From NCBI GenBank assembly GCA_047519685.1, contig JAPVSP010000427.1:1-33100 (forward strand): a DNA stretch of 33,100 nt, read 5' to 3'. The stretch's first letter is position 1; each line of letters begins with the position of its first letter. The notes under the pieces are model-generated. The model saw only the letters and a list, made by a program, of their open reading frames with translations, made no database searches and was not told the DNA's origin. Of the stretch, positions 567 through 24,102 are shown piece after piece. Source of the DNA: Chloroflexota bacterium (lineage in GTDB: Bacteria; Chloroflexota; Limnocylindria; Limnocylindrales; CSP1-4). The position numbers and the translations under genes are program-made.

Positions 567-823
567 CGGGCCCGGGCCGTGACCCGTGGCGGACGCTGGC
601 TGCTGCTCCACGGCGCGCTGCTCGAGCGAAGCGCGGACGGCAAGGTCGCGGTCATCATCGAGCCGGCCCCTCGCCGGAGATCGCCCCGCTCGTGGTCCAG
701 GACCATCTGAAGGCGATCTTGGAGAAGATCGGCGTGCGCAGCCGACGGGAGACGGTCGGCCGCATCCTCAGCGAGCACTACCGGCCCTCGCTCGTGGCCG
801 GGGAGCACCTCGCGAGCCACTGA
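567..823 (+). pseudogene. Remnant of a GAF-LuxR-type transcriptional regulator: 5'-truncated, frameshifted and internally deleted
   Basis: Frame 3 reads ...RARAVTRGGRWLLLHGALLERSADGKVAVIIEPA (to ~668). Frame 2 continues PSPEIAPLV|VQDHLKAILEKIGVRSRRETVGRILSEHYRPSLVAGEHLASH* with stop TGA at 821-823. This matches the C-terminal layout of actinobacterial LuxR-family regulators as I recall it (...GrWl.lhg..L......avviEPArP.ElAPl...aYGLT.RE..v......T.eIa..L.iS..TVQDHLKaIFeKvGV.sR.ELv). The whole 'YGLT...S..T' helix-turn-helix stretch is missing between APLV and VQDHL. A 1-nt frame change lies near 668-671. No room exists for the N-terminal sensor domain because the upstream gene ends at 459. Confidence 0.45.
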
Positions 824-1025
824 CGGCGCCGGGCCGGGGACGAATGGCGTCTCCCGGCTCGCCCGTGGACGGTCGCCGAGGGGGCGACCGCGATCGGCGA
901 TCCAGGGGATCCGCCGGCGCCCCCCGTCGTCCGGCCTCACGCGAGGGTCCTCGACGTCACTACCATGGGGCCAGCGCGCGGGAGCCCGCCCGCACGTCGA
1001 AGGGCGATCGAGAAGGGAGTCCCGG

Positions 1026-3026: not shown

Positions 3027-3044
3027 CCCCTCCTCCCGGCCTGA

Positions 3045-3073
3045 CCCGCGGGCCGCCTGACGCGGCCGGCGGG
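3045..3073 (-). other. Intercistronic stem-loop abutting the stop codon of the Zn-ADH gene
   Basis: Plus strand reads CCCGCGGGCCGC (3045-3056) / loop CTGAC / GCGGCCGGCGGG (3062-3073), giving 11 of 12 positions paired. It sits between the ADH stop (3074) and the RBS of the next gene. It could be a partial terminator or an mRNA-stability element. Confidence 0.35.
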
Positions 3074-4078: not shown

Positions 4079-4944
4079 CACGCCTTCACCTCCCTGGGTT
4101 GGCGGTGCGGACGCAGGAGACGGCGGCCGCGGGTCAGGACGAGCGAGCCTAGGCCGAACACCCCGAGCGTCGCGAACAGGATGACCGTGGCGACCGCATT
4201 GACCTCGGGAGTGACCCCGAACTTGATCTGCGTGTAGATGAAGATCGGCAGGGTCAGCTGCGGGCCGATCGTGAAGTAGGTGATGACGAACTCGTCGATC
4301 GACAGCGTCACGCTCAGGAGGGCTCCGGCGACGATCGCCGGGGCGATGAGCGGCAGCACGATGTGCCGCAGGGTCGCGGGGCCGTCGGCCCCGAGGTCGG
4401 CGGCGGCCCACTCCAGCCGTCGATCGAAGCCCTGGAGCCGCGCCGCGACGATGAGCACGACGAACGGGGTCGTGAAGACGAGGTGCCCGGCGATGACCGT
4501 CATCAGGGACAGGTTCACGTCGGCGACCCGGTGGAAGAAGATCAGCAACCCGATCCCGAGCAGGACGCCCGGGATCATGATCGGCATCGTGAACAGCAGT
4601 CGCGCGGTCCCCGGCGCCGGGATGCCACCGCGGACGAGCGGGAAGGCCGCCATCGTCCCGATGATCGTGGCAAGGATGGCCACGGCCAGCGCGACGATCA
4701 CCGAGTTCAGGACGGCCGTCTGGATCGCGCTGTCGGACAGCATCTGCTGATACCAGTGCAGCGTCAGGCCGGTGATGGGAAGGCCGGGCGTCGACGCCTC
4801 CTCGAACGAGAACAGGATGAGGAACGCGATCGGCACGTACAGGAACACGAGGATGACCCCGGCGAGGATCTTGAGGAGCCAGCGCGTCTGCCGGGCGAAT
4901 GGACTGACCGGCATCGTCTCGAGCGGGCTGATCGTCCTAGCCAC
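4078..4944 (-). CDS. ABC transporter permease, PotC/PotI-like (spermidine/putrescine-type family)
   Basis: 288 aa with about 6 hydrophobic helices. EAA-loop region EWAAADLGADGPATLRHIVLPLIAPA. GTG start at 4944 overlaps the upstream stop by 8 nt; an alternative ATG exists at 4914. Confidence 0.85.
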   Translation of the reverse strand: MARTISPLETMPVSPFARQTRWLLKILAGVILVFLYVPIAFLILFSFEEASTPGLPITGLTLHWYQQMLSDSAIQTAVLNSVIVALAVAILATIIGTMAAFPLVRGGIPAPGTARLLFTMPIMIPGVLLGIGLLIFFHRVADVNLSLMTVIAGHLVFTTPFVVLIVAARLQGFDRRLEWAAADLGADGPATLRHIVLPLIAPAIVAGALLSVTLSIDEFVITYFTIGPQLTLPIFIYTQIKFGVTPEVNAVATVILFATLGVFGLGSLVLTRGRRLLRPHRQPREVKA

Positions 4945-5854
4945 GGGCCACCACGTCCTCGACCCGCAGGTACCGCCGGAAGACGATCAGGACCACCGTG
5001 ACGAAGGCCGCGATGACGATCGCCAGCGCCGCACCCTCCGGGATCTGGGCGCCCCTGAAGTAGTTCACCACCAGGTTCGCGATGAGGCTGCCCTGGGCCC
5101 CGCCGACCAGCGTGGGCGTCAGGAACTCGCCGAGGATGGGGATGAACACGAAGATGCAGGCGGTGATGATGCCGGCCCGGATCTGCGGCAGAAGGATGAA
5201 CCGGAACGCCTGGTCCGGTCGCGCCCCCAGGTCCTGTGCGGCGTTGAGCTGCGCGAAGTCGAACTTCTCGAGTGCCGCATACAGCGCGAGGGCGGCGAAT
5301 GGGAAGTACACGTAGACCAGGACGATGAACACGCCGAGGTCGTTGTAGACGAACAGGAGCGATGGCTGCTTGATCAATCCGATCGCCTGGAGGAGCTGAT
5401 TCAGCGCGCCGTGCTCGCCGAGGATCGCCTGCCACGCGTAGACCCGCAGCAGGTAGCTCGTCCAGAACGGCACGATGACGGCCAGCAGGATGACCCGCTG
5501 CCAGCGAGGGTTGACGTAGCGGACCAGGAAATAGGCGAACGGGAGAGCCGTGGCGAGACCGGTCAGGGTCACCGCGCTGGCCATGATCAGCGTCTTGGCG
5601 AACGTCCGCAGGTAGGTCGGGACGGTGAAGAACTTGACGTAGTTGTTCAGGTTCCAGACCTGCTCGATGTCGAAGTTCACGTTCGTCCGCCAGAAGCTGT
5701 AGACGAGCATGAACGCCATCGGGATCAGGAACAGGAAGAGGAGCAGCGCAAGACCCGGCAGGAACGGGGCGGCCCGTCCCAGCCGGTGTCGCGCGGAGCG
5801 CCGGGTATCCGCCAGCGGGGCTGCCTCAGCCCCGCTGGCGAGCACCGGGCCCAT
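4937..5854 (-). CDS. ABC transporter permease, PotB/PotH-like
   Basis: 305 aa from MGPVLASG. Multiple TM helices. EAA loop LNAAQDLGARPDQAFRFILLPQIRAG. The track ORF to 6691 runs through the upstream SBP gene in another frame, so the start is set at the first ATG after the SBP stop (5881). Confidence 0.85.
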   Translation of the reverse strand: MGPVLASGAEAAPLADTRRSARHRLGRAAPFLPGLALLLFLFLIPMAFMLVYSFWRTNVNFDIEQVWNLNNYVKFFTVPTYLRTFAKTLIMASAVTLTGLATALPFAYFLVRYVNPRWQRVILLAVIVPFWTSYLLRVYAWQAILGEHGALNQLLQAIGLIKQPSLLFVYNDLGVFIVLVYVYFPFAALALYAALEKFDFAQLNAAQDLGARPDQAFRFILLPQIRAGIITACIFVFIPILGEFLTPTLVGGAQGSLIANLVVNYFRGAQIPEGAALAIVIAAFVTVVLIVFRRYLRVEDVVARG

Positions 5855-5880
5855 CGGACCGAAGCCGTCCGGACGCTCGG

Positions 5881-7056
5881 CTAGGCGCCGAAGACCTCGT
5901 TGAAGGCATCGATCGCCCCCTGGGTCGAGACACCCGGCCCCTTGAGGGTCATGGTCAGGACCGTCTCGGGCTTGTTGTACAGGAACCGGTCGGCGCGATC
6001 CTGCTGACCCTGGTTGATGAGCAGCTTGTAGGCCTGCTCGTTGAACAAGGGCCGTCCGTTCAGGATGAAGTTGGCGGCGATGTACTCGGCCTGCTCGGCG
6101 ACCTCGAGGAACGGCTTGATCAGCTTCGTGTTCGAGCCGCCCTTGACGATCATCTCGGAGTCCATCCAGCCGATGGTCCCCTCCTTCGGGGTGAAGACCT
6201 TGAGCTCCGGTCCGCCCTGGTCCTTGACCCGCTCCTCCGTCCCGAGGTTGCCGGTGGCGATCCAGGCCTCCTCGTTCTTGAGCGCGGCGATCGTGTCGGT
6301 GTTCTGCTGGGCGAACCTGAGGATGTTCGGCTTCAGCTTGATCGCCAGGTCCTTGGCCTTGGCGATCTCGTCCGTGGTCATGTTGTACGGGTCCTTGACG
6401 CCGGCCAGCTTGCCCATGTAGGCCATGACCTCGACCGGCTGGTTCTCGACGACGACCCGCTTGAGGTACTTCGGGTCGAGCAGGACCTCCCACGAGTCGG
6501 GCGTCGTGGTCACGTACTTCGGGTTGTAGTAGATCTGGACGGGCGACCAGCCGAACGGGTAGCCCAGGTAGCCCTCGGGCTTCTTCCAGATCGCGAAGTC
6601 GCGGGCGATGGAATAGAGCTGCTGCGACACCTTGAGCTCGTTGATGTCCCAGGCCTCGATCAGCCCCGATTCGAAGTACTTGGGGACCCACAGGGCGTCC
6701 CCGGAGATCATGTCGAGCTGCCCGCCGACCTCCTTGAGCTTGGTGTAGCCGTCGGAGTTGTCGGCCAGCTCCGTGATGTTCGTCTTGATGCTGTTGGCGG
6801 AGCCGATCGCGTCGAGCTGAGCCTGGTACCAGTGGTCGCTCCAGGTCATCCAGTTGAACGTGCCGGTCGGTGCGGAAGACGGGCTCGCCGCGACGCTGGC
6901 CGCCGCGCTCCCCGCCGCGCTGGCCGCCGCGCTCGGCGACGGGGTGCTCCCCGTGGAGCAGGCCGCGGCGATCCCGCCGAGCCCGACAGTGGCGCTGACC
7001 GCGCCGGTCGCTTTCAGGAACTGCCGCCGACTGAGCTCCCTAGCCAGAAGATCCAC
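5881..7056 (-). CDS. Extracellular solute-binding lipoprotein, PotD/PotF-like (polyamine/amine-type SBP family), with a Tat-type signal
   Basis: Start set at GTG 7056 because of the strong RBS AGGGAGG 8 nt upstream. N-terminus [33 protein letters not shown] contains a twin-arginine motif plus a lipobox Cys, followed by a Ser/Ala-rich linker. The mature part is typical of the SBP_bac_8/PotD fold (FNWMTWSDHWY..., GYPFGWSP). Overlaps the potA-like stop by 17 nt. Confidence 0.85.
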   Translation of the reverse strand: MDLLARELSRRQFLKATGAVSATVGLGGIAAACSTGSTPSPSAAASAAGSAAASVAASPSSAPTGTFNWMTWSDHWYQAQLDAIGSANSIKTNITELADNSDGYTKLKEVGGQLDMISGDALWVPKYFESGLIEAWDINELKVSQQLYSIARDFAIWKKPEGYLGYPFGWSPVQIYYNPKYVTTTPDSWEVLLDPKYLKRVVVENQPVEVMAYMGKLAGVKDPYNMTTDEIAKAKDLAIKLKPNILRFAQQNTDTIAALKNEEAWIATGNLGTEERVKDQGGPELKVFTPKEGTIGWMDSEMIVKGGSNTKLIKPFLEVAEQAEYIAANFILNGRPLFNEQAYKLLINQGQQDRADRFLYNKPETVLTMTLKGPGVSTQGAIDAFNEVFGA

Positions 7057-8164
7057 CGGGCGTCCCTCCCTTGGTGTCGTCATCTCCGATGAAGGCCGCA
7101 TCCTCGGCCGACCACCATACGCACGCCTCCTGACCCAGCTCTCCCGTCATCTCGACCGACCGGACATTCGTCCCGTGGGGGCGCAGCACCACCATGTCGC
7201 CGCCGGCCGTGGCCACCGTGATGCGGGTGTGATTACCGAGGAATGCGACGTTGGCGATCCGCCCGACGAGCCCCGGCCCTGGCAGCGCCGGGTGGACCGG
7301 CCGGAGCGACAGGGATTCCGGGCGGATCATCAGGGTCGCCGGACCGACCCGACTGCCCGCGGGGGCATCGACCCGGCCGCCGGTGGCGAGCACGAACGTC
7401 GGACGCCCGGCGTCCACCTCGACCCGGCCCGCCAGGAAGTTCGTCTCCCCGACGAAATCCGCCACGAACCGGTTGACCGGCCGGTCGTAGACCTCCCGCG
7501 GCGTCCCGGTCTGGATCACGTTGCCCTCGGACATGATCGCGACCCGGGTCCCCATCGAGAGGGCCTCTTCCTGATCGTGGGTCACGAACACGAAGGTCGT
7601 CCCGACCTGGCGGTGGATCCGCGACAGCTCCACCTGCATCTGCTTGCGGAGCTTGAGGTCCAGTGCCCCAAGGGGCTCGTCGAGGAGCAGGACGGCAGGG
7701 CGCTTGGCCAGCGCCCGGGCGAGGGCCACCCGCTGCTGCTGCCCGCCGGAGAGCTGCGCCGGCAGGCGCTCGGTCAGGCCTCTGAGACCGACCAGCTCGA
7801 GATACTCCGCGACCCGGGTCGCGATCTGGGGACCCGACAGGCGCTCCATCCGCAGGCCGAAGGCGACGTTCTGGGCGACCGTCATGTGCGGGAACAGCGC
7901 GTAGTTCTGGAACACGGTGTTGACGTTGCGCTTGTGCGGCGGCAGGTCGTTGACCCGTCGCCCCTCGATCCGCAGCTCGCCCGAGGTCAGCGGGATGAAC
8001 CCGCCGATGAGATTGAGCGTGGTCGTCTTGCCGCAGCCGGATGGCCCGAGGAGGCAGAAGAACTCGCCCTGGCCGATGTCCAGCGTCACGTCGTCGAGGG
8101 CCGTCGTGTCCGCGTAGCGCTTCGTGGCACGGATGAGCTCGATCGCGGGGCGTCGGTCGGCCAT
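7040..8164 (-). CDS. ABC transporter ATP-binding protein, PotA-like with C-terminal TOBE/regulatory domain
   Basis: 374 aa from [15 protein letters not shown]. Walker [10 protein letters not shown], signature [15 protein letters not shown], Walker [13 protein letters not shown]-loop FVTHDQ. Start set at ATG 8164, just after the LacI stop at 8175. Confidence 0.9.
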
Positions 8165-8174
8165 GTCGCCCACG

Positions 8175-9266
8175 TCAGCGGCTCCCGGCGCCAACGGCGA
8201 CCCGGGCGAGGTCGGCCGGTCTCGCCCGACCATCGTCGCCGATCGTCCGCGTGCTCTCGCCCACGACGAGCTCGACCGGGAGGATCTGGCCGGGCGGGAG
8301 CTCCCCGGTGTGGATCGCCGCGACCAGCGACGCCGCGGCCAGGCGGCCCAGCTCGGCCGACGGGGTCGCCACCGTCGTCAGCCGCGGGTTGGAGATCGCC
8401 GCGAACGGGATCCCATCGAAGCCGACGATGCCCACGTCGCGCGGGACCGACACGCCGTGACGGCGCAACCCGTCGAGAAGGCCGAGGGCCAGCTTGTCGT
8501 CGTAGCAGATGAGCGCCTCGGGCAGGACGCGAACGATCGTCGCGGTCACTGCATCGGGCGCGCACCAGCCCTCGCGCCCGGCCTCGAACCGGCGCATCGG
8601 GTGGCGGATCCCCCGCGCGCGCAGGGCGCGCTCGGCCGCCTCGCGCCGGACGATGTCGGACGGCCGACCACTCCCACCGACATAGCCGATGTCGCGATAG
8701 CCGCGCTGGACGAGGTGATCGACCGCGGCCGCGACCCCGGCCTCGTCGTCGGTCCGGATGACCCCCGCCGGCACCACCCCGCCGCGACGCAGGAGGCTCC
8801 GATGATCGGGCTGGACGACGACCAGTCGATCCGGCCTCGTCCTCGCTCTGGCCTCCCGCGGATCGAGGACCGTCGACACCAGGGCCACGCCGTCGGTCCC
8901 GTGCTCGGTGAAGATCTTGAGCGCTCGTCGCTCGCGGACCGGGTCGTTGAAGCCCGCCACGAAGATGACGCGGTAACCGCGCTCGCCGGCGGCCTGCTCG
9001 AACCCGGCCGCGACCTGGCCGTGGACGGGGTCGCTGAGGTCCGCCAGGAGGAGTCCGAGGGTCCGCGTGCGGCGGACCCGCAGGCTGCGCGCAGCAGCGT
9101 TCGGGATGTAGCCCAGCTCGTCGGCCGCCGCCCGGATCGCGATCCGTGTGGGGGCGCTGATCCGGGGATCGTCGGCCAGAGCGCGCGAGGCCGTCGAACG
9201 GGACACCCCGGCGATGCGGGCGACGTCGTCGAGGGTCACTCGGCGGTGTGGATCGCGCGCGCCCAT
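8175..9266 (-). CDS. LacI/PurR-family transcriptional regulator
   Basis: N-terminal HTH VTLDDVARIAGVSRSTASRALADDPRISAPTRIAIRAAADELGYIPNAAARSLR, then a periplasmic-binding-protein-like sensor domain. I prefer ATG 9266 (RBS GAGGGA 7 nt upstream) over ATG 9281. Confidence 0.9.
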   Translation of the reverse strand: MGARDPHRRVTLDDVARIAGVSRSTASRALADDPRISAPTRIAIRAAADELGYIPNAAARSLRVRRTRTLGLLLADLSDPVHGQVAAGFEQAAGERGYRVIFVAGFNDPVRERRALKIFTEHGTDGVALVSTVLDPREARARTRPDRLVVVQPDHRSLLRRGGVVPAGVIRTDDEAGVAAAVDHLVQRGYRDIGYVGGSGRPSDIVRREAAERALRARGIRHPMRRFEAGREGWCAPDAVTATIVRVLPEALICYDDKLALGLLDGLRRHGVSVPRDVGIVGFDGIPFAAISNPRLTTVATPSAELGRLAAASLVAAIHTGELPPGQILPVELVVGESTRTIGDDGRARPADLARVAVGAGSR

Positions 9267-9290
9267 CGCCCGGTCCCTCATCCGCCGCAG

Positions 9291-10523
9291 CTACGCCAGG
9301 TACCGACTCGCGACCGCCCGGAACCGCTCGGCGCGGACCCGGGCGACGTCCGCTCCGTCGCGCATCCGCAGCCCGAACGGGGCGAGGTTCGGGTCGAGGA
9401 CGCCGATCGCGAAGCTCATCGAGCGCCCGAGCAGCCGGTCCGTGCCGGGCAGCATCCCCACCCGATACTCGGCCACCGAGTCGTCCGTGCACGGGCAGTC
9501 GAACGGGCAGCCCCGGCCGGTGATCGTCCGGCCCGCGAGGACGTGCTCCATGTGGGTGTAGACGTGCCAGCCGCTCGTGGCCAGGGTGATGGAGCCGAGC
9601 TCGGCGGTCACCGCGCTGGCGATCGAAGCATCGGGGAAGATGACCACCAGGTGGGTGGCCAGGTCCCCGGCCGGATCGGGCAGCGTCCGGAACCGGAGAC
9701 CGGGCAGGTCCCCGATCAACCCATGGACGAGGTCCCGGTTGGCCCGGAGGTGATCGCGGATCCGGTCGAGACGGCGCACCTGGGCGAGCAGGACGGCCCC
9801 CTCGAGCTCGGTCATCCGGAAGTTCAGCCCGAGGAACGGGCGCGCCCCGACCTCGATGCCCCGCCGGTTCGGGCTGTGGCCCTGGTCGTGCATCGCGAAG
9901 CAGCGGCGATAGAGCGCCTCGTCGTCGGTTACGAGGAGGCCACCGTCACCGCAGGTGATCGTCTTGAACTCGTTGAAGCTGTAGATGCCGGCGGCGCCGT
10001 GAGCGCCGACCCAGCGGCCGTCATAGGTCGCCCCGAACGCCTGGGCACAGTCCTCGATGAGCGCCAGCCCGTGGCGGTCGGCGATCGCTCGCAGCTCGGC
10101 GATGCGGGCCGGGTTGCCGAGCATGTGGACGGCGACGATGGCCCGCGTCCGCGGGGTGATCCGAGCCTCCACGTCGGCCGGATCGAGACCGAACGTCTCG
10201 TCGACCTCGGCCAGGACCGGCCGCGCGCGAGCGTAGACGACCGACGAGATGGTCGCGACGAACGTGAAACCAGGGACGATGACCTCGTCGCCGGGACCGA
10301 TGCCCAGCCCGACCAGGGCCAGGAACAGACCACTCGTCCCGGAGTTGAGGGCGAGGGCGTGGGAGACGCCGGCGAGCTCGGCAACGGTCTCCTCGAACCG
10401 GCGGACCTTGGCCGGGAAGCTCGAGTCGTCCGGGCCGTAGCGGCTGAGGTGCCCGCTCGCGAGGACCTCGGCGACCTCGGTCAGCTCCTCCGCGCCGACG
10501 AGGTCGAGACCCGGTCCCGGCAT
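9291..10523 (-). CDS. DegT/DnrJ/EryC1/StrS-family PLP-dependent aminotransferase (sugar / inosose aminotransferase type)
   Basis: 410 aa from MPGPGLDLVGAEEL. Family-typical NSGTSGL, VIVPGFTFVAT, IEDCAQAFG and PLP-lysine context SFNEFKTITCGDGG. RBS AGGAGG upstream of ATG 10523. The track ORF to 11015 is an over-extension into the divergent gene. Confidence 0.9.
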   Translation of the reverse strand: MPGPGLDLVGAEELTEVAEVLASGHLSRYGPDDSSFPAKVRRFEETVAELAGVSHALALNSGTSGLFLALVGLGIGPGDEVIVPGFTFVATISSVVYARARPVLAEVDETFGLDPADVEARITPRTRAIVAVHMLGNPARIAELRAIADRHGLALIEDCAQAFGATYDGRWVGAHGAAGIYSFNEFKTITCGDGGLLVTDDEALYRRCFAMHDQGHSPNRRGIEVGARPFLGLNFRMTELEGAVLLAQVRRLDRIRDHLRANRDLVHGLIGDLPGLRFRTLPDPAGDLATHLVVIFPDASIASAVTAELGSITLATSGWHVYTHMEHVLAGRTITGRGCPFDCPCTDDSVAEYRVGMLPGTDRLLGRSMSFAIGVLDPNLAPFGLRMRDGADVARVRAERFRAVASRYLA

Positions 10524-10539: not shown

Positions 10540-10568
10540 TTGTGCAACCGATTGCACGACGGTAGCAT
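10540..10568 (+). promoter_or_regulatory. Candidate sigma-70/SigA-type promoter for the 865-aa protein gene
   Basis: TTGTGC (10540-10545), 17-nt spacer, TAGCAT (10563-10568). The operator palindrome lies inside the spacer. Hexamers matched by eye only. Confidence 0.3.
10542..10557. promoter_or_regulatory. LacI-family-type operator candidate (14/16 palindrome with central CG)
   Basis: GTGCAACCGATTGCAC has perfect 6-bp arms GTGCAA/TTGCAC. Its core TGCAACCGATTGCA fits the generic LacI/CcpA box pattern TGnAAnCGnTnnCA. It is the only such site I found in the window. It lies in the 85-bp divergent region between the aminotransferase-LacI operon and the 865-aa protein gene. Confidence 0.5.
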
Positions 10569-10608: not shown

Positions 10609-13206
10609 TTGGTCGTCTCCCGCAGCACGCTCTCGACCCGCCGAGCCTGGCCGGTGGACCTGACGGCGGCCTGGAACGCCTCGGACGCCGACGTGGCCGC
10701 CCGCTTCCATCCGCTGTACCGGACGGCCCTCGGCCGGCTGCCCGAGGGCGACCAGGTCTTCCGGGGTCTGCCGTTCGCGCTCGGCCGGCGGGCGGCGGGC
10801 GCACGCTGGATCCTCGTCGACGAGACGCGCCGCATCGACCTGACTGGGTCGCCGCCGGCCAGCCACGTCGTGGTCGCCCACCTGTGCGACGCCAGGCACG
10901 ACGCCGGTGGCGGTCGGCCCGCCGGCGTGCCGCTCGGCTGGGTCGAGCCGGTCGGCGAGCCGCTCGCCCGGTACGAGCTGGTCACGGCCGATGGGCGTCG
11001 CCGGGCGACCACCATCCGGCGCCGGTTCGAGGTGAACGAGGGGATCCTCGGCTGGGGGTCCGGGGCGTTCCTGGCCGTCGGCCACCGGTTCGACGAGCCC
11101 CTCGACTGGCGCGGCCCGCACGAGCGACAGGTGCCCGGCCGCTACGCCCCTGCCGGTCACGCCGGCCCCCTGACGATCCTGCCTGGTGCATGGGGTCCGG
11201 GCCAGACGGGCGTCGCCGACTTCGTGCCCAGCCCCGCCGACGATGCGCTGCTCTGGCTGCACGCGATCGCCCTCGGCGAGCCGGCGCGCCTGACCGAGCT
11301 CCGCCTTCAGCCGCTCGGTCAGGGCGGGCCCGGGCGAGACATCCTCGTCGCCGGGATCGCGCTGTTCTCCGGGACGGCCGACCCGCTGGTCCTCGAGCCA
11401 CGTCGCCAGATCCTCGTGCGCGGCCTGGCCAGCCCGACGCCTCCCGAGACCGACCTGGGGGTGGTCATCCGGACGGCCATCGCGAGCGACCCCCCGGAGT
11501 CGCCGACGGAGCGGGCCATCGGCTGGGGCGCGAGCCGGCCCGACCGGACCTCAGCCAGGGTCGTGGACGCCGTCGTCGACGTCGCCCTCGCGCCCGATGC
11601 CTGTCTGCGCCTGGCCGACTGGGAGGTGCCGGCGGCGGCGATCGGCCCGGACCCTGTCCGTGGGCCCGGCGGGACGCCGACCGTCGAGGCGCTGCCCGCG
11701 CCCGAGATCCGGGTGGCGGTCACGGTGGTCGACGCGGGGACAGGCCGGCCGATCCCGACGCGGGTCCGGTTCGTCGCGGCCGACGGGCGGTACCTGCCGC
11801 CGGTCGGCCACCGCGACGAGGTCAACCCCGGGCTGTACGAGGACACCGGCGCCGACCTCGTCCTCGGCCGGGAGACCTACGCCTACGTCCCCGGCGCATT
11901 CGAGATCGACCTGCCCCTCGGCTCGGTCGAGGCCGAGGCCGTCCGCGGGTTCGACCATCGTCCCATCCGGACCCGTCTCGAGGTCGACCCCGCGACCCGC
12001 CACCTCGAGCTCGCGCTCGCCCGCCCGATCGACCGACGCCCGGACGGCTGGATGACGGCCGACTCGCACGTCCACTTCCTGGCACCGTCGACCGCCCTTC
12101 TCCAGGCCGCCGCCGAGGACCTCGCGATCGTCCATCTGCTGGCGACCCAGTGGGGTGATCACGCCACGAGCGTGACCGACCTGGCGTGGGGCTCGACCGT
12201 CGATCCGAGCGGCGAGCACCGCGTCGTGGTCGGGACGGAGAACCGCCAGAACCTGCTCGGGCACCTGGGTCTGCTCGGCGCCCGGCGCCCGGTCCTGCCG
12301 ATGGCCAGCGGTGGGCCGCCGGAGGGCAGGATCGGCGGCGCCCTGGTCGAGCTGCTCGCCGACTGGGCCGATCGCTGCCACGAGGCCGAGGGCCTGGTCG
12401 TCGCCGCCCACTTCCCGCTGCCGTACGCGGAGGTGGCCGCCGACATCGTCGCCGGCAAGATCGACGCGGTCGAGATGCAGTGCTTCTCGCCCGGCCTCGA
12501 CCACCCCTCGATCCTCGAGTGGTACCGGTTCCTCGACTGCGGCTACCGGCTGCCCGTCCTCGGGGGGACGGACAAGATGTCGGCCGAGGTCCCGGCGGGG
12601 GCCGTTCGGACGTACGCCCGGCTCCAGCCGGGGGAGCCGGCCTCCTTCGAGGCGTGGGCCGCCGCGGTCCGCGCGGGCCGGACGTTCGCGACATCCGGAC
12701 CCTTCCTCGAGCTGTCCGTCGAGGGCCACGAGCCCGGCGGCGTCATCGCCCTGCCCGCCACGGGCGGGCGGCTCGGGGTCCAGGCCGCTGCCCGCGCGGC
12801 CCAGCCGATGATCACGGCGATCGAGCTGGTGGTGAACGGGCAGGTCGTCGCGGAGGAGGCGTCCGCCCGGGCGACCGATGCGCTCGACGTCTCCACGGCG
12901 ATCGAGGTCCGAGCGGGCAGCTGGATCGCGGCCCGGGCACGGAGCGACCGCCAGATCGAGTCGGCGTTCGCGACGAGCATGGCCGCGCACACCTCGCCGG
13001 TCTACGTCGAGGTCGTCGACCGCCCGCTGTTCGTCGCCGACGAGGCCGGGCCGATCCTGGAGGTAATCGAGGGGGCGCGACGCTGGGTGGCGTCGATGGC
13101 GGCGGTCGAGCGGCCGGCCGACCGTCGGCGGATGGTCGAGTTCCTGGCGGCCAGCGCGGCGACGTTCCGCGCTCGGCTGGATCGTGCGAAGCGGGAGGTG
13201 GACTGA
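10609..13206 (+). CDS. Large multidomain protein: unrecognised N-terminal region (~360 aa), beta-sandwich (carboxypeptidase-regulatory-like) segment, and a C-terminal metal-dependent hydrolase-like domain (PHP / CehA-McbA / amidohydrolase-like)
   Basis: Continuous high-GC3 frame of 894 codons in the track. I place the start at TTG 10609 (RBS GGAGA 8 nt upstream), because ATG 10522 would overlap the divergent gene's start codon. A GTG at 10654 is an alternative. Segment RVAVTVVDAGTGRPIPTRVRFVAADGRY begins at nt ~11701. Metal-site-like pattern: DSHVHF (12061-12078), GHLGLLG, VVAAHFPLPY, GGTDKMS (D at 12571). The N-terminal part has no motif I can name. Confidence 0.8.
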   Translation: MVVSRSTLSTRRAWPVDLTAAWNASDADVAARFHPLYRTALGRLPEGDQVFRGLPFALGRRAAGARWILVDETRRIDLTGSPPASHVVVAHLCDARHDAGGGRPAGVPLGWVEPVGEPLARYELVTADGRRRATTIRRRFEVNEGILGWGSGAFLAVGHRFDEPLDWRGPHERQVPGRYAPAGHAGPLTILPGAWGPGQTGVADFVPSPADDALLWLHAIALGEPARLTELRLQPLGQGGPGRDILVAGIALFSGTADPLVLEPRRQILVRGLASPTPPETDLGVVIRTAIASDPPESPTERAIGWGASRPDRTSARVVDAVVDVALAPDACLRLADWEVPAAAIGPDPVRGPGGTPTVEALPAPEIRVAVTVVDAGTGRPIPTRVRFVAADGRYLPPVGHRDEVNPGLYEDTGADLVLGRETYAYVPGAFEIDLPLGSVEAEAVRGFDHRPIRTRLEVDPATRHLELALARPIDRRPDGWMTADSHVHFLAPSTALLQAAAEDLAIVHLLATQWGDHATSVTDLAWGSTVDPSGEHRVVVGTENRQNLLGHLGLLGARRPVLPMASGGPPEGRIGGALVELLADWADRCHEAEGLVVAAHFPLPYAEVAADIVAGKIDAVEMQCFSPGLDHPSILEWYRFLDCGYRLPVLGGTDKMSAEVPAGAVRTYARLQPGEPASFEAWAAAVRAGRTFATSGPFLELSVEGHEPGGVIALPATGGRLGVQAAARAAQPMITAIELVVNGQVVAEEASARATDALDVSTAIEVRAGSWIAARARSDRQIESAFATSMAAHTSPVYVEVVDRPLFVADEAGPILEVIEGARRWVASMAAVERPADRRRMVEFLAASAATFRARLDRAKREVD

Positions 13207-13207
13207 C

Positions 13208-14080
13208 GTGAAGATCGCGCTCGACCCCTACATGCTCCGGGGTCTCCCGTTCGGGGAGGTCTGCCGGATCGCCGCCGACGTCGGCTACCGCTACATCGAG
13301 CTCTCGCCGCGGACCGACTTCATCCCGTTCTTCGTCCATCCGCGAGCCGATCGGTCGCGGATCGCCCACTTCCGGACGGCGCTCCGCGAGACCGGGATGG
13401 AGCTCTCGTCGATCCTGCCGCTCTATCGCTGGTCGAGCCCCGACGAGGACGAGCGGCTGGCCGCGGTCGGCTACTGGAGGCGGGCCATCCAGCTCGCCGT
13501 CGAGCTCGGCTGCCAGACGATGAACTCGGAGCTCAGCGGACGACCCGATCAGGCGGCCCGCTCCGAGGCCCAGTTCTGGCGGTCGCTCGACGAGCTCCTG
13601 CCGATCTTCGAGCGCGAGGGGATCGTCCTCGACCTCGAGCCCCACCCCGACGACTTCGTCGAGCTCAACGATCCGGCCGTGGACCTCGTCCGGGGCATCG
13701 ATTCGCCGAGCGTTCGCTACGTCTTCTGTGCGCCGCACACGTTCCACCTCGGCGGCGAGGTCGGGGCGATGATCCGCTACGCCGCGCCGGTCCTCGCGCA
13801 CGTCCACCTCGCCGACGTGTTCGATCACCGCGCCTCGTCCGGCCTCCGCTACATCGTCAATCCGCCCGGCTCGACGGCCCGGGTCCACCAGCACCTCGAC
13901 ATCGGTCAGGGCGAGGTCGACTGGGACGCGCTGTTCGCTGCGCTCGCCGAGATCCGCTTCGACGGGATCCTGACGAGCTGCGTCTTCGCCTGGGAGGAGC
14001 GCGCCGTCGATTCGGCGAGGTTCATGCTCGAGGAGATCCAGCGGCGCCTGTCGAAGGCCGCCGCAGCGGGCCAGGTCTAG
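13208..14080 (+). CDS. Xylose-isomerase-like TIM-barrel protein (sugar phosphate isomerase/epimerase family), second copy of the fold in this locus
   Basis: 290 aa from GTG 13208, which is 1 nt after the upstream TGA. RBS GGGAGGTGG overlaps the end of the upstream gene. Motifs YIELSPR, LDLEPHPDDFV, HVHLADV, HLDIGQGEVDW. Confidence 0.85.
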   Translation: MKIALDPYMLRGLPFGEVCRIAADVGYRYIELSPRTDFIPFFVHPRADRSRIAHFRTALRETGMELSSILPLYRWSSPDEDERLAAVGYWRRAIQLAVELGCQTMNSELSGRPDQAARSEAQFWRSLDELLPIFEREGIVLDLEPHPDDFVELNDPAVDLVRGIDSPSVRYVFCAPHTFHLGGEVGAMIRYAAPVLAHVHLADVFDHRASSGLRYIVNPPGSTARVHQHLDIGQGEVDWDALFAALAEIRFDGILTSCVFAWEERAVDSARFMLEEIQRRLSKAAAAGQV

Positions 14081-15036
14081 GCGCCGGCCGGGGACCGCAT
14101 CGCCGAAAGGCGCTCGAGGGTCTGGCCATCGAACGGCGCCGGCCAGTCGAAGATCGCCTCGCTCGCGCCGGCGGCCGCGTAGGCGTCGAGCAGGTCCGCG
14201 ACCGCCGACGCCGTGTCGGCGAACGGCGAGCTCTCGGCCCAGGCATGGGCATCGCCCGCGCCGGCCGTGTGGGGCGTGAGCCGGATGGCCAGCGCCTCGA
14301 CGGCCGCCTCCCGGGTATCGCGGATGCACACGGGTGGCAGCCCCACCGTCCGTCGGATGGACGATGGAGCGCGCCCGACGTCGGAGCAGCGGAGGTCGAG
14401 CGCCGCGTTCCGCCGCGCGTAGGCCTCGGGATCGCCCTCGCCGTTCCAGACGTCGGCGTAGCGGGCGACGATCGGCAGCGTCCGCCGCTCGCCGCTGCCG
14501 CCGATGAGGAGCGGCAGGCGTGCCTGGACGGGCGGCGGGTCGTTGCGTGCCGCCTCCATCGCGACCCAGCGGCCCGCGAGCGTGACCGTCCGGCCATCGA
14601 GCAGTCCGCGGACGACGGTGGCCGTCTCCTCGAGCCGGTCGAGCCGCTCGGCCAGGCGGGGGAACGGGTACCCGAACGCCCGGTGCTCTCGCTCGTGCCA
14701 TCCGGCGCCCAGCCCGAGGACCGCCCGACCGCCGCTCAGGTGGTCGAGCGCGGTCGCCATCTTGACCAGCAGGCCCGGATCCCGGTAGGCGGCGCCGCTG
14801 ACGAGGCAGCCCAGCCGGATCCGCGTCGTCGCCGCCGCCCATCCGGCCAGCGTCATCCACGCCTCGAAGACCGGGCCGTCCTGCCCCGTCACGGGCCCCT
14901 GGCCGGCCCCCGCGATCGGGTAGAAGTGGTCGTTCGCCCACAGGCTGTCGAACCCGGCGGCCTCGATCGCCCGGCCCGCGGCCATCAGATCGGCCCACGC
15001 GACGGCCTGCCCCCAGACCTGGAAGCCGATCAACAT
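14077..15036 (-). CDS. Luciferase-like monooxygenase (LLM) class oxidoreductase, probably F420-dependent
   Basis: 319 aa from MLIGFQVWGQ. LLM hallmarks FDSLWANDHF, LGLGAGWHEREH, LLIGGSGERR. The stop overlaps the stop of the convergent gene (CTAG at 14077-14080). The track ORF to 15435 is an over-extension. Confidence 0.85.
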   Translation of the reverse strand: MLIGFQVWGQAVAWADLMAAGRAIEAAGFDSLWANDHFYPIAGAGQGPVTGQDGPVFEAWMTLAGWAAATTRIRLGCLVSGAAYRDPGLLVKMATALDHLSGGRAVLGLGAGWHEREHRAFGYPFPRLAERLDRLEETATVVRGLLDGRTVTLAGRWVAMEAARNDPPPVQARLPLLIGGSGERRTLPIVARYADVWNGEGDPEAYARRNAALDLRCSDVGRAPSSIRRTVGLPPVCIRDTREAAVEALAIRLTPHTAGAGDAHAWAESSPFADTASAVADLLDAYAAAGASEAIFDWPAPFDGQTLERLSAMRSPAGA

Positions 15037-15379
15037 CTTCGGGTGCTCACCGCTCGTGTGTCGTCCCGACCTCGCCGGTCGTCCGTGAACCCGGCTGAGC
15101 AGCGATCGGCCCGGTCGAGGCCGCATCGGAGCGTCGACTCGCATGCGACAGTAGCGCCCCGCCCCGTCGTCGTCGAGCCCGAGTCGGGCGACCGGCGATC
15201 TGCGCCGCGCGCCCGCATGCCATCCCGCCCGACCCGTCGAGCCGGATGCCCCTGTGCGCCCGGTGCGGCCAGCCGCACGATCGGAGTTCGCGGCACCATC
15301 GAGGCGGATGCCCGGCGCCGCGCGGACCGGGGCCGGAGGCGGCCCGGGGGCTCCTGGGACAGCAGGAAGAAGGGACGAG

Positions 15380-16528
15380 ATGAGCGTGTCGACCGTCGCC
15401 TCTGGGAAGCAGGCGGATCTCGCCGGTCCGGGCATCGGGGACTATGCGGAGCTCGAGAAGGTCCTGCCGACGGACTACCGGTCGATCCTCGACCCACGCC
15501 AGACCCAGGAGGCCATCTACGCGGTCAAGGGCTACATCGAGGAGCATCTCTGCCGCGAGCTCGGTCTCCAGATGGTCCAGGTCCCGCTCATCGTCGACGT
15601 CGAGTCGGGCGTCAACGACATGCTCGACCGCGACGGCTCCCGTACGCCGATCCAGTTCCACATCTCGAACGACTACGACAAGCACCCGATCGACGCCCAG
15701 GTCGTCCAGGCCGCCACGAAGTGGAAGCGCGTCGCGCTCCGGCAGTTCGGGATGGGCGTCGGCGAGGGCATCTGCACCGACATGCGCGCGGTCCGGAAGG
15801 ACTACTTCCTCGATCACGACCACAGCATCTACGTCGACCAGTGGGACTGGGAGCGGGTCATCCGGCCGGAGGACCGCGACCTGCGCTACCTCAAGGATGT
15901 CGTCCGAACGATCTGGCGGGTCCTCCGCGGCGCCGAAGCGGATGTCCAGGCGCGCTTCCCGCAGCTGCGGACGGACCGCTACCCGGACCTGCCCGAGGAG
16001 CTGGCCTTCCTGCACGCCGAGGACATCCTGGCCCGCTATCCGGACCTGCCCCGCAAGCAGCGCGAGACGCGCATCCTCCAGGAGTTCGCGGCGGTCTTCA
16101 TCATCGGGATCGGCTGGACGCTCGCCGACGGCTACCCGCACGAGATGCGGGCCGCCGACTACGACGACTGGATCACCGAGACCCGGTCCGAGGACGGTCG
16201 GCCGATGCACGGCCTCAACGGCGACATCCTCGTCTGGAACCCGGTGACGCGTCGGCGTCACGAGCTCTCATCGATGGGCATCCGGGTGGATGCGGACTCG
16301 CTCCGCAGGCAGCTCGAGATGACGGGCCAGCTCGACTGGCTCCGCCTCCCCTACCACTCCGCGATCGTGAGCGGGGAGGTGCCGCTGAGCATCGGCGGCG
16401 GCATCGGTCAATCGCGGACCCAGATGCTGCTGCTCAAGAAGGCCCACCTGGGTGAGGTCAGCGTGACCGTCTGGCCGCGGATCCTCAAGGACATGTGCGC
16501 CGCGAGGGGCATCCACGTCCTCGAGTAG
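15380..16528 (+). CDS. asnA: Aspartate--ammonia ligase (asparagine synthetase A)
   Basis: 382 aa from MSVSTVAS, with GAAGGGA RBS. Long collinear similarity to E. coli AsnA recalled from memory: SIYVDQWDWERV, RYPDL, IGIG, DYDDW, GLNGDILVWNPV, ELSSMGIRVDADSL, GGGIGQSR. Confidence 0.9.
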   Translation: MSVSTVASGKQADLAGPGIGDYAELEKVLPTDYRSILDPRQTQEAIYAVKGYIEEHLCRELGLQMVQVPLIVDVESGVNDMLDRDGSRTPIQFHISNDYDKHPIDAQVVQAATKWKRVALRQFGMGVGEGICTDMRAVRKDYFLDHDHSIYVDQWDWERVIRPEDRDLRYLKDVVRTIWRVLRGAEADVQARFPQLRTDRYPDLPEELAFLHAEDILARYPDLPRKQRETRILQEFAAVFIIGIGWTLADGYPHEMRAADYDDWITETRSEDGRPMHGLNGDILVWNPVTRRRHELSSMGIRVDADSLRRQLEMTGQLDWLRLPYHSAIVSGEVPLSIGGGIGQSRTQMLLLKKAHLGEVSVTVWPRILKDMCAARGIHVLE

Positions 16529-18685: not shown

Positions 18686-18804
18686 GAGCGCTCCTCCTCC
18701 TCCTCGTGCCCCAACGGACCGGGATAGCGTCGGATGATAGCGGCCCGGGACGCTGCCCGAAGCCCGCAGCCGCCGTCCGCGGGCGAACCGGCCGCCGTCC
18801 GGGC

Positions 18805-20528: not shown

Positions 20529-20550
20529 GATCTCCGTCCTCGGGGGTGGA

Positions 20551-24024: not shown

Positions 24025-24102
24025 CCTCCCCCGCGCGGGCCGGCCGCCGGAGGAGGGCGGCCGGCCCATCCGTTGCCCGACCCGATCCACCGGAGCTCGC
24101 GG

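What the first reader, a model, noticed from the sequence alone, without database searches (positions are those of the whole stretch)
10609..13206. 865-aa protein with a ~360-aa N-terminal region of no recognisable family, fused to a metal-hydrolase-like domain
The coding signal (GC3) is uniform across the ORF. Only the C-terminal ~380 aa show a metal-dependent hydrolase-like ligand pattern: DSHVHF ... GHLG ... AAHFPLPY ... GGTDKMS. That domain is preceded by a beta-sandwich (RVAVTVVDAGTGRPIPTRVRFVAADGRY).

The first ~360 residues contain no motif I can assign (for example FRGLPFALGRR, LWLHAIALGEP, ILVAGIALFSG). No signal peptide or TM segment is evident, so the protein is probably cytoplasmic.

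The gene is translationally coupled to a TIM-barrel isomerase, with GTG 1 nt after its stop. It is driven from the same operator-containing region as the LacI operon, so it probably catalyses the committed (de-acylation, de-phosphorylation or ring-hydrolysis) step of the unknown pathway.
Basis: partly seen in the sequence, partly recalled or inferred. Interest (0 to 1): 0.7.

Follow-up and report, generated by a model that had tools for sequence, protein, structure and literature searches.

The report
Cyclitol-cluster metallohydrolase with unassigned N-terminal module
This is a real, intact 865-residue cytoplasmic enzyme that joins a metal-dependent hydrolase domain of the carbaryl-hydrolase (CehA/McbA) kind to a conserved ~365-residue beta-rich front end matching no described family, and in soil Chloroflexota it sits inside gene clusters for breaking down inositol-like and amino-cyclitol compounds, so it points to an uncharacterised first step of that breakdown.

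Summary
ORF 10609-13206 (TTG start, 865 aa) is a genuine gene, and more than 470 full-length relatives of about 865 aa exist. Residues 480-801 match the NCBIfam CehA/McbA metallohydrolase domain, with all putative metal ligands invariant. Residues 1-365 match nothing in Pfam, NCBIfam or PDB sequences.

An AlphaFold model (pTM 0.78) shows a jelly-roll-like beta-sandwich interrupted by an invariant but unmodelled 60-residue loop. It has no significant structural neighbour in the PDB.

A profile search of 1.84 billion proteins found only 414 clusters carrying the module. Every informative one is fused to the same hydrolase. The apparent stand-alone copies are frameshifted genes. The characterised enzymes CehA and McbA lack the module.

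In 51 long loci, almost all from Chloroflexota (Limnocylindria-like) MAGs, the gene lies with a PotD-like ABC importer, a LacI regulator, a DegT aminotransferase, IolD/B/C/J, IolG/IolE-like genes and an F420-type oxidoreductase. Three paralogue types occur.

My best reading is a cytoplasmic hydrolase that unmasks an imported amino-cyclitol or amino-sugar conjugate, with the N-terminal module helping to recognise the substrate. The substrate itself is unknown. I class it as a new variant of a known enzyme family, of moderate interest.

The parts
10609..13206 (+). Whole gene: 865-aa CehA/McbA-family metallohydrolase with a family-specific N-terminal module (TTG start, TGA stop at 13204-13206)
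   Evidence: Translation; GC3 profile; identical NCBI product and more than 470 full-length homologues
10609..11703 (+). N-terminal module, aa 1-365. A beta-sandwich of about 13 strands (aa 10-295) is followed by a small 4-stranded unit (aa 318-362). No known family matches.
   Evidence: AF2 models; no Pfam, NCBIfam or PDB hit; Foldseek best E 2.7e-3; only 414 clusters carry it among 1.84e9 proteins
11023..11253 (+). Invariant Gly/Pro/Trp/His-rich insertion, aa 139-215 (E141, W149-G150, F154, H159, W167-x-G169-P170, G183, P192, D204, P207). pLDDT is below 50 in both models.
   Evidence: Conservation; pLDDT
11704..12033 (+). Middle beta-sandwich, aa 366-475 (RVRFVAADGRY motif). Shared with CehA/McbA.
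   Evidence: AF2 secondary structure; alignment with McbA/CehA from about aa 420
12034..12708 (+). PHP-like catalytic domain, aa 476-700. Invariant residues: D485, H487, H489, E544, H552, H601, E622, D655.
   Evidence: NF038032 at 148 bits; invariants; McbA's essential H467 and H504 align to H552 and H601 (PMC8292978)
12709..13203 (+). C-terminal beta-sandwich (aa 701-805, containing invariant H794) and a helical hairpin (aa 806-865)
   Evidence: AF2; conservation
10543..10556 (.). LacI-family-type imperfect palindrome TGCAACCGATTGCA, in the 85-nt divergent intergenic region
   Evidence: Unique in the window; the same motif lies 55-85 nt upstream of the orthologue in L003, L047, L051, L032 and L038
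10596..10599 (+). GGAG ribosome-binding site, 9 nt upstream of the TTG start
   Evidence: Sequence
13208..14080 (+). Translationally coupled xylose-isomerase-like TIM-barrel gene (AP_endonuc_2), with only weak epimerase/isomerase similarity
   Evidence: Pfam 3e-50; NCBIfam weak hits only; junction sequence; the coupling is conserved in type-A relatives
9291..10523 (-). Divergent DegT/DnrJ/EryC1 aminotransferase. Closest solved relative is KdnA (5k8b).
   Evidence: Pfam 8e-84; PDB 3.6e-75; present in 40 of 51 related loci
8175..9281 (-). LacI-family regulator
   Evidence: Pfam; present in 41 of 51 loci
4078..8233 (-). ABC importer: TOBE-type ATPase (7043-8233), PotD-like TAT-signal substrate-binding protein (5884-7101) and two permeases (4940-5884, 4081-4986)
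   Evidence: Pfam; NCBIfam weak PotD/PotF hits; present in 31-35 of 51 loci
2103..4081 (-). Zn-dependent alcohol dehydrogenase (3077-4081) and IolE-like TIM barrel (2106-3026), at the end of the minus-strand gene row
   Evidence: Pfam; TIGR04379 at 154 bits, below the 290 cut-off
711..2033 (+). IolG-like GFO/IDH/MocA dehydrogenase
   Evidence: TIGR04380 at 332 bits, against a cut-off of 355
14077..15435 (-). Convergent F420-type luciferase-like (LLM) oxidoreductase. The true start is probably near 15054-15100.
   Evidence: TIGR03560 at 240 bits, above cut-off; present in 26-28 of 51 loci; homologue alignment ends at 15054

Best explanation
The gene encodes a cytoplasmic, metal-dependent hydrolase of the CehA/McbA (PHP-like) family. 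It works at the entry of a LacI-controlled catabolic pathway for an imported amine-bearing cyclitol or sugar-like compound.

Proposed sequence of events (inferred):
1. A PotD-like ABC system imports the compound.
2. The hydrolase removes a masking substituent. I think an acyl, carbamoyl or ester-type group is most likely, by analogy with the only characterised family members. A phosphate group is the main alternative.
3. The DegT aminotransferase converts the freed amine to a ketone.
4. IolG/IolE-like enzymes, the coupled TIM-barrel enzyme and, in relatives, IolD/B/C/J open and degrade the ring.

The N-terminal 365 residues are not a spacer. They form a compact jelly-roll-like beta module that is part of one rigid multi-domain body. 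Together with its invariant 60-residue loop, the module most likely shapes or caps the substrate pocket of the catalytic domain and contributes to specificity.

Shown: the gene is real, the domain layout, intact catalytic residues, restriction of the module to this architecture, and the conserved neighbourhood.

Inferred: the chemistry, the substrate class and the role of the module.
For: Catalytic domain: NF038032 scores 148 bits against a cut-off of 80. D485/H487/H489/E544/H552/H601/E622/D655/H794 are invariant in 61 sequences and are kept in distant relatives. McbA's essential His467 and His504 align to H552 and H601 (PMC8292978).

The N-terminal module is functional:
- Mean conservation is 0.65-0.79, close to that of the catalytic domain.
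- It has been kept with the hydrolase across Chloroflexota, Bradyrhizobium and Mesorhizobium (A1 profile E 2e-17 and 5e-12).
- In every informative hit of the exhaustive search it is fused to the hydrolase.
- Apparent stand-alone copies are frameshifted genes.
- The full-length model has pTM 0.80, which suggests a fixed domain arrangement.

Specificity role: the N-terminus diverges faster than the catalytic half (21-43% vs 38-54% identity). Positions specific to paralogue type fall in N-terminal residues 1-210 (8 positions) and the catalytic domain (9 positions), with only 1 in the remaining 430 residues. CehA and McbA carry unrelated N-terminal regions.

Pathway: all 51 long-flank loci place the gene with subsets of LacI (41), DegT (40), ABC importer (35), IolB (35), IolD (34), LLM oxidoreductase (26-28), IolJ (24) and IolC (21). 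IolD and IolB pass their equivalog cut-offs. DegT is closest to KdnA, which acts on a free sugar, and next to the inosose aminotransferases. The operator motif is conserved upstream.

Cytoplasmic location: no signal peptide or TM segment.
Against: No substrate or activity is known for any member with this architecture.

The PHP superfamily is mostly made of phosphoesterases, so acyl or carbamoyl chemistry is only an analogy with two xenobiotic-degrading enzymes that are about 26% identical.

The invariant loop is unmodelled in both predictions.

The type-specific-position argument rests on three clades and is confounded by phylogeny.

The window itself lacks IolD/B/C/J within its 33 kb.

Distant family members sit in different (uronate/GH88-type or amino-acid-type) catabolic islands. 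The cyclitol link therefore holds for this clade, not for the whole family.
Confidence: 0.5

Rival explanations
1. The enzyme is a phosphoesterase, the canonical PHP-fold chemistry. It removes phosphate from a phosphorylated cyclitol or amino-sugar, for example an inosamine or inositol phosphate, inside the cell. The several paralogues per cluster would act on different positions.
For: Reviews describe the catalytic domain of McbA as polymerase/histidinol-phosphatase-like (PMC8292978). The invariant HxH, Glu, His, His, Asp, His set fits a multi-metal centre. Two or three paralogues occur in one cluster. The coupled TIM barrel has weak similarity to sugar-phosphate epimerases.
Against: Pfam PHP models do not hit the protein at E <= 1. 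The only characterised family members hydrolyse carbamate esters. The importer's binding protein is PotD/PotF-like, a type that binds cationic amines, not anions. No kinase other than IolC is conserved in the cluster.
Confidence: 0.22
2. The N-terminal module is purely structural. It serves as an oligomerisation or stabilising scaffold and makes no contact with substrate. Specificity lies entirely in the catalytic domain.
For: The fold is a generic beta-sandwich with no recognisable binding site. Few N-terminal residues are universal across the broad family (G53, P55, G116, R137, P170, P259, D282, G284), and most of those are Gly or Pro.
Against: Within the clade there are many invariant polar and aromatic residues (H86, H91, D94, R137-R139, E141, W149, H159, W167, D204, D212, H218). 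A conserved but unmodelled loop is typical of segments that order on a ligand or partner. Type-specific positions co-occur in the N-terminal and catalytic domains.
Confidence: 0.2
3. The N-terminal module is a second, independent catalytic or metal-binding domain, making the protein bifunctional. For example, it could perform two successive steps on the same substrate.
For: The clade has invariant His, Asp and Arg residues (H86, H91, D94, R137-139, H159, D204, D212, H218). The semi-conserved 'hhhhxHxxD' and 'RRxFEI' motifs are visible in distant members.
Against: Most of these residues are not conserved across the broad family. The fold resembles binding modules, not known catalytic folds. The module never occurs alone or with another partner.
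Confidence: 0.07
4. The long ORF is an artefact: a mis-called start, a fusion of two genes, or a pseudogene.
For: High-GC DNA yields many long spurious ORFs. Some distant relatives are frameshifted.
Against: GC3 is uniform with the correct GC1 > GC2 pattern. More than 470 homologues have the same length and cover the full length. A ribosome-binding site precedes the start and the homologues' N-termini coincide with it. A confident single-chain model was obtained.
Confidence: 0.01

Closest known systems
CehA and McbA carbaryl/carbofuran hydrolases (NCBIfam NF038032, CehA/McbA family metallohydrolase)
   Same: They share the beta-sandwich, PHP-like catalytic domain and C-terminal beta domain, aligned over target residues ~420-860. 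The HxH motif is conserved, and McbA's essential His467 and His504 correspond to H552 and H601.
   Different: Identity is only about 26%. CehA and McbA are 769-794 aa, exported (Tat/Sec-type signals), plasmid- or transposon-borne xenobiotic degraders. Their N-terminal regions are unrelated to this module (no A1 profile hit at E <= 100; HH probability < 1%). The target is cytoplasmic and sits in a chromosomal-type catabolic cluster.
PHP (polymerase and histidinol phosphatase) superfamily phosphoesterases
   Same: They work in a similar way: His/Asp/Glu ligands for a multi-metal hydrolytic centre on a distorted TIM barrel (established knowledge; PMC8292978 calls the McbA domain PHP-like).
   Different: No Pfam PHP model matches at E <= 1. 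No PDB sequence matches even the family profile. The final DxH motif is replaced by D655-K, with a distal H794. Phosphoesterase activity has not been shown for this family.
Bacillus-type myo-inositol catabolic (iol) operon and rhizobial rhizopine (moc) catabolism
   Same: The neighbourhood holds IolG-, IolE-, IolD-, IolB-, IolC- and IolJ-type genes plus GFO/IDH/MocA dehydrogenases under a repressor, with an ABC importer.
   Different: To my knowledge, known iol and moc clusters contain no CehA/McbA-type hydrolase. They also lack the combination of a DegT aminotransferase, a PotD-like binding protein and an F420-type LLM oxidoreductase. The literature searches found no description of such a cluster.
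Jelly-roll / carbohydrate-binding-module-like beta-sandwiches (Cry toxin domains, GH87 accessory domain, CBM51, PNGase F)
   Same: These are the best, though sub-threshold, Foldseek neighbours of the N-terminal model. They share an all-beta sandwich topology.
   Different: No hit reaches E < 1e-3. TM-scores are 0.13-0.28 when normalised to the query and at most 0.44 when normalised to the target, so homology is not established. The 60-residue invariant insertion has no counterpart.

Membership tests
CehA/McbA family metallohydrolase (NF038032) | Score above NCBIfam's curated cut-off over the full domain model | tested here: met
   148 bits against a cut-off of 80; model positions 1-315 of 315 on residues 480-801
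CehA/McbA family metallohydrolase (NF038032) | Retention of the His residues shown by mutagenesis to be needed in McbA, and of the HxH motif | tested here: met
   McbA H467 aligns to H552, H504 to H601 and H396/H398 to H487/H489. All are invariant in 61 family members (PMC8292978). The alignment to CehA in the central region was poor, so its numbered His residues could not be mapped.
CehA/McbA family metallohydrolase (NF038032) | Carbamate-ester hydrolase activity | not testable with these tools
   Needs an enzyme assay
CehA/McbA carbaryl hydrolases in the narrow sense (orthologues of the characterised enzymes) | Same full-length architecture, including the N-terminal region and an export signal | tested here: not met
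   No A1 profile hit in McbA or CehA at E <= 100. HH probability 0.1-0.5%. The target has no signal peptide.
PHP domain (Pfam PF02811 and relatives) | Significant match to a Pfam PHP model | tested here: not met
   No Pfam family at E <= 1 for the whole protein
PHP domain (Pfam PF02811 and relatives) | PHP fold with a His/Asp/Glu multi-metal site | tested here: inconclusive
   Alternating beta/alpha elements at residues 481-700 and invariant ligand-type residues fit the fold.
Known carbohydrate-binding / jelly-roll modules (for residues 1-365) | Significant sequence or structure match (Pfam hit, or Foldseek E < 1e-3 with TM > 0.5) | tested here: not met
   Pfam gave nothing. Foldseek's best hit was E 2.7e-3 with TM <= 0.28.
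myo-inositol (iol) catabolic gene cluster | Adjacency to IolD and IolB equivalogs scoring above cut-off | tested here: met
   This was met in relatives, not in the window. L001 IolD scores 873 bits (cut-off 715) and IolB 238 (cut-off 205). IolD is present in 34 and IolB in 35 of 51 loci. The window holds only IolG-like (332 vs 355) and IolE-like (154 vs 290) genes, both below cut-off, and has no IolD/B/C/J.

The most novel reading that the evidence does not exclude
The cluster is a dedicated catabolic system for aminocyclitol natural products in abundant, uncultured soil Chloroflexota. Candidate substrates are inosamines, streptamine-type diamino-cyclitols, or aminoglycoside or pseudo-oligosaccharide antibiotics and their fragments.

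In this reading a polyamine-type binding protein captures the polycationic compound. The two or three paralogous hydrolases, each with the new N-terminal recognition module, cleave its carbamoyl, acyl or glycosyl-type substituents. One or two DegT aminotransferases remove the amino groups. The Iol enzymes then burn the ring.

The N-terminal module would then be a new ligand-recognition domain for cyclitol-containing compounds.
Probability: 0.12. Interest if true: 0.75.

Novelty: new variant of a known kind. Interest (0 to 1): 0.45.

Why it matters
The CehA/McbA hydrolases are known only as recently recruited pesticide-degrading enzymes, and their natural roles are obscure. This finding shows a sizeable native branch of the family. 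That branch has its own conserved, undescribed ~365-residue module and is built into an inositol/aminotransferase catabolic cluster in Limnocylindria-like Chloroflexota, a widespread soil lineage known here only from metagenome-assembled genomes.

If the substrate were identified, it would give three things. It would give a natural function for the family. It would define a new protein domain, which has no Pfam entry. It would also possibly give the first described route for breaking down amino-cyclitol compounds beyond rhizopine. That bears on carbon and nitrogen turnover, and possibly on the fate of antibiotics in soil.

It is not a new kind of system. It is an unexplored variant of a metal hydrolase inside a recognisable sugar/cyclitol regulon.

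Tried and rejected
1. Sequence assignment of residues 1-365 failed everywhere: Pfam on the whole protein at E <= 1 and on 26 members at E <= 10, NCBIfam, PDB phmmer and profile hmmsearch.

2. Foldseek against PDB with the N-terminal model gave only sub-threshold jelly-roll/CBM hits. With the full-length model it gave only generic Ig-like multi-domain hits, with no PHP structures in the top 50, so it was uninformative.

3. The idea that CehA and McbA share the N-terminal module was rejected.

4. The idea that the module exists as a stand-alone protein was raised by 315-515-aa hits on long contigs. It was rejected because those loci align colinearly to an intact homologue with frame switches. 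The ~420-aa hits of the exhaustive search are contig-end fragments or frameshifted calls.

5. The upstream in-frame ATG at 10522 was rejected as the start. It would overlap the divergent DegT start and the operator, and the homologues' N-termini align with the 10609 start.

6. The sigma-70 promoter, terminator and inverted-repeat scans of the intergenic region found nothing. The palindrome is too short and imperfect for the repeat finder.

7. Literature searches for a described aminocyclitol catabolic cluster containing this enzyme found none.

8. Residue-distance analysis between the N-terminal module and the metal site was not possible, because model coordinates are not exposed.

9. Looking up the source organism by cluster membership returned no names.
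Full report
THE GENE

The ORF at 10609-13206 (+) translates without interruption into 865 residues. The DNA is about 73% G+C, so long spurious ORFs occur in all frames. This frame, however, has third-position GC of 0.84-0.98 along its whole length, with GC1 > GC2 as expected for a + strand gene.

The start is TTG at 10609, 9 nt after GGAG. The upstream in-frame ATG at 10522 would overlap the divergent neighbour's start and the operator. An identical 865-aa product is already on record (P0001). The word-indexed search returned 476 relatives. The best 120 are 848-1048 aa and cover 96-100% of the query at 59-73% identity. The gene is therefore real and intact.

DOMAIN LAYOUT

NCBIfam places residues 480-801 in NF038032, the 'CehA/McbA family metallohydrolase' domain (148 bits against a cut-off of 80). 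Pfam has no hit anywhere in the protein at E <= 1, and no PDB sequence matches the protein or its family profile.

The full-length AlphaFold model (61-sequence alignment A2; mean pLDDT 83.1, pTM 0.80) shows these parts:
- a beta-rich N-terminal region (residues 10-362);
- an all-beta sandwich (366-472);
- an alternating beta/alpha catalytic domain (481-700);
- a second beta-sandwich (701-802);
- a C-terminal helical hairpin (810-864).

D485, H487, H489, E544, H552, H601, E622, D655 and H794 are invariant in 61 sequences and are kept in distant relatives. [quoted passage not shown] In a profile alignment, His467 and His504 fall on H552 and H601 of the target, and McbA's HxH falls on H487/H489. 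The catalytic machinery is therefore intact.

THE N-TERMINAL REGION

Residues 1-365 match nothing:
- Pfam, with the whole protein and with each of 26 family members scanned alone, gave only single hits at E > 0.1.
- NCBIfam gave nothing.
- PDB gave nothing by phmmer or by profile.

The region is nevertheless nearly as conserved as the catalytic half (mean column conservation 0.65-0.79). It has many invariant polar and aromatic residues: H86, H91, D94, R137-R139, E141, W149, H159, W167, P170, D204, D212 and H218.

A separate model of residues 1-372 (pLDDT 75.9, pTM 0.78) gives a roughly 13-stranded sandwich plus a small 4-stranded unit. The stretch from about 148 to 208 contains the densest run of invariant residues but has pLDDT < 50 in both models. 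That behaviour is typical of a segment that orders only with a ligand, a metal or a partner subunit. This last point is my inference.

Foldseek against PDB found no hit at E < 1e-3. The best hits (Cry4Ba, the GH87 accessory domain, CBMs, PNGase F, Eph ligand-binding domain) are jelly-roll/CBM-type sandwiches with TM <= 0.28 when normalised to the query. The fold class is plausible, but homology is not established.

HOW WIDESPREAD THE MODULE IS

A profile of the module (A1) was scored against all 1.84 billion cluster representatives. It found only 414 proteins at E <= 1e-3. The full-length ones are 787-1017 aa. Shorter ones that I inspected are contig-end fragments that run into the same beta-sandwich, or frameshifted calls.

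A scan of GTDB species-representative genomes found 103 loci. The 80 best are almost all MAGs labelled Chloroflexia, Chloroflexota or Candidatus Limnocylindrales. Single exceptions are labelled Gaiellaceae, Verrucomicrobiia, Patescibacteria and Anaerolineaceae.

Outside this clade, an 879-aa Bradyrhizobium and an 896-aa Mesorhizobium plasmid protein have a homologous N-terminus (A1 profile E 2e-17 and 5e-12).

A search seeded with the Bradyrhizobium N-terminus returned several 315-515-aa 'hypothetical proteins' on very long contigs. This at first suggested a stand-alone form. In all three loci examined, the short ORF is followed by an overlapping same-strand ORF. The intact homologue aligns colinearly across them with frame switches: one in L088, one in L090 and at least four in L089. 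These are frameshifted copies, either pseudogenes or long-read assembly errors, in distant relatives.

The characterised enzymes McbA (769 aa) and CehA (794 aa) align only from about residue 420 onward at about 26% identity. They have export signals. Their N-terminal regions are unrelated to this module (no profile hit at E <= 100; HH probability < 1%).

The module therefore defines a distinct sub-family and is never seen apart from the hydrolase.

NEIGHBOURHOOD IN THE WINDOW

On the minus strand, diverging from the target, lie:
- a DegT/DnrJ/EryC1 aminotransferase (9294-10523);
- a LacI regulator (8178-9281);
- an ABC ATPase with a TOBE domain (7043-8233);
- a TAT-signal PotD/PotF-like binding protein (5884-7101);
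- two permeases (4940-5884, 4081-4986);
- a Zn-dependent alcohol dehydrogenase (3077-4081);
- an IolE-like TIM barrel (2106-3026).

An IolG-like dehydrogenase (711-2030) lies beyond on the plus strand.

Downstream of the target, a xylose-isomerase-like TIM-barrel gene starts at GTG 13208, one base after the TGA, with GGGAGG 10 nt upstream. An F420-type LLM oxidoreductase converges on it.

The 85-nt divergent gap holds the LacI-type palindrome TGCAACCGATTGCA (10543-10556), which is unique in the window. The degenerate motif TGCAANCGNTTGCA lies 55-85 nt upstream of the orthologue in L003, L047, L051, L032 and L038, and at a fixed position in another cluster type. No sigma-70 consensus promoter was detected, which says little for this lineage.

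NEIGHBOURHOOD IN RELATIVES

In all 51 loci with long flanks, the gene is embedded in the same gene set:

| Gene | Loci (of 51) |
|---|---|
| LacI | 41 |
| DegT | 40 |
| ABC ATPase and binding protein | 35 each |
| IolB | 35 |
| IolD | 34 |
| LLM oxidoreductase | 26-28 |
| IolJ-type aldolase | 24 |
| IolC-type kinase | 21 |

Several GFO/IDH/MocA dehydrogenases and a split transketolase also recur. IolD and IolB of L001 pass NCBIfam's equivalog cut-offs (873 vs 715 bits; 238 vs 205 bits).

Three recurring arrangements exist:
- Type A: divergent from IolD or DegT, and coupled to the TIM barrel. The window belongs to this type.
- Type B: divergent from the ABC operon.
- Type C: divergent from LacI, followed by IolD, a GFO dehydrogenase and a second DegT.

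These arrangements correspond to three sequence clades (64-67% identity within, 49-54% between). Two copies often lie 12-15 kb apart on one contig.

The window's DegT is closest to KdnA (5k8b, E 3.6e-75), an aminotransferase that acts on a free rather than nucleotide-linked sugar. Perosamine synthases and 2-deoxy-scyllo-inosose aminotransferases come next.

The window itself has no IolD/B/C/J within its 33 kb.

Distant family members sit in other catabolic islands:
- P0205 lies with KduI, a short-chain (SDR) dehydrogenase, PfkB, an Eda-type aldolase, GH88 and an LLM oxidoreductase.
- The Bradyrhizobium gene lies with an MFS transporter, LacI, a CoA-transferase, GH88 and a DHDPS-family gene.
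- The Mesorhizobium gene lies among ABC transporters, a serine hydrolase and amine/amino-acid catabolic genes.

The broad family is thus a cytoplasmic hydrolase of sugar-, cyclitol- or amine-conjugate catabolism. The cyclitol/aminotransferase link is specific to this clade.

MECHANISM

Shown here:
- an intact metal-hydrolase active-site signature;
- an obligatorily fused, conserved N-terminal beta module;
- cytoplasmic location (no TM segment or signal peptide);
- a position at the head of an operon next to the regulator's operator;
- a conserved partnership with an amine-type importer, an aminotransferase and ring-opening Iol enzymes.

Inferred: the enzyme removes a substituent from an imported amine-bearing cyclitol or sugar-like compound, so that transamination and the Iol route can proceed.

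I favour acyl, carbamoyl or ester chemistry, because the only characterised family members are carbamate esterases and the importer looks cation-specific. Phosphate-ester hydrolysis, the usual PHP chemistry, is the main rival. Ring hydrolysis is unlikely, because relatives encode IolD.

For the N-terminal module I favour a role in substrate recognition or as an active-site cap, for four reasons:
- It diverges faster than the catalytic half (21-43% vs 38-54% identity to distant members).
- CehA and McbA carry different N-terminal regions.
- The full-length model's pTM of 0.80 implies a fixed packing of the domains.
- Positions conserved within but different between the three paralogue types fall in residues 1-210 (8 positions) and in the catalytic domain (9 positions), against 1 in the other 430 residues.

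The last argument is weak, because it rests on only three clades.

COMPARISON AND NOVELTY

The protein is a member of the NCBIfam CehA/McbA metallohydrolase family by the domain criterion. It is not an orthologue of the carbaryl hydrolases: the architecture, cellular location and N-terminal region all differ. The module has no Pfam or NCBIfam model and no solved or significantly similar structure.

Literature searches found no description of this sub-family or of an iol/DegT cluster containing it. I therefore class it as a new variant of a known kind. It is moderately interesting for enzyme and domain discovery and for the biology of uncultured soil Chloroflexota, but it is not a new type of system.

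The most novel reading not excluded is a dedicated aminocyclitol or aminoglycoside catabolic system whose recognition domain is this module (probability about 0.12).

Noticed in passing
window 21492-27624: A second, unrelated catabolic-looking gene row: a class-III aminotransferase (21492-22952, minus strand), a carbon-nitrogen hydrolase (22978-24021), an LLM oxidoreductase (24025-25113), a 579-aa amidohydrolase (25399-27135) and an ABM monooxygenase (27139-27624). An NMT1/THI5-like binding protein (17594-18913, minus strand) and an ABC ATPase (19638-20918, minus strand) lie nearby. This suggests degradation of another nitrogen-containing compound.
   Followed up: partly
window 15254-16525: An AsnA-type aspartate-ammonia ligase whose Pfam domain begins only at residue 85, so either it has an N-terminal extension or the start is mis-called. 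It has no counterpart in any of the 51 related loci.
   Followed up: no
window 27297-28892: A very G+C-rich stretch with long overlapping ORFs on both strands (519 aa on +, 440 aa on -) and unusual codon-position GC (GC1 0.93 on the minus-strand ORF). The minus-strand ORF has no Pfam hit, and the coding strand is unresolved.
   Followed up: no
window 30587-33100 (minus strand, runs off the window end): A large subtilase (Peptidase_S8 with an inserted PA domain and fn3-like domains), truncated by the contig end.
   Followed up: no
L088 6001-8638; L089 6001-8590; L090 5686-8242: Distant homologues in a Bradyrhizobium genome and in two long metagenomic contigs are split by frameshifts: one, at least four, and one frame switches respectively. 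Their N-terminal parts are annotated as separate 'hypothetical proteins'. They are either pseudogenes or long-read assembly errors.
   Followed up: yes
Related loci, e.g. L004/L022, L021/L045, L034/L036, L010/L031, L052/L073: Many Limnocylindria-like MAGs carry two or three paralogues of the target 12-15 kb apart in one super-cluster. The three context types (A, B, C) are separate sequence clades. Type-C loci have two DegT genes flanking the cluster.
   Followed up: partly
L001 6098-7965 and many type-A/B loci: A split transketolase (separate N- and C-terminal subunit genes) is conserved between IolB and IolD in many of these clusters. To my knowledge it is not part of the classical iol pathway, which hints at a variant lower pathway.
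   Followed up: no
window 14080-15435 (minus strand): The 452-aa ORF for the LLM oxidoreductase is probably over-extended. The homologue alignment and the Pfam/NCBIfam domains begin around residue 135, which implies a true start near 15054-15100.
   Followed up: partly
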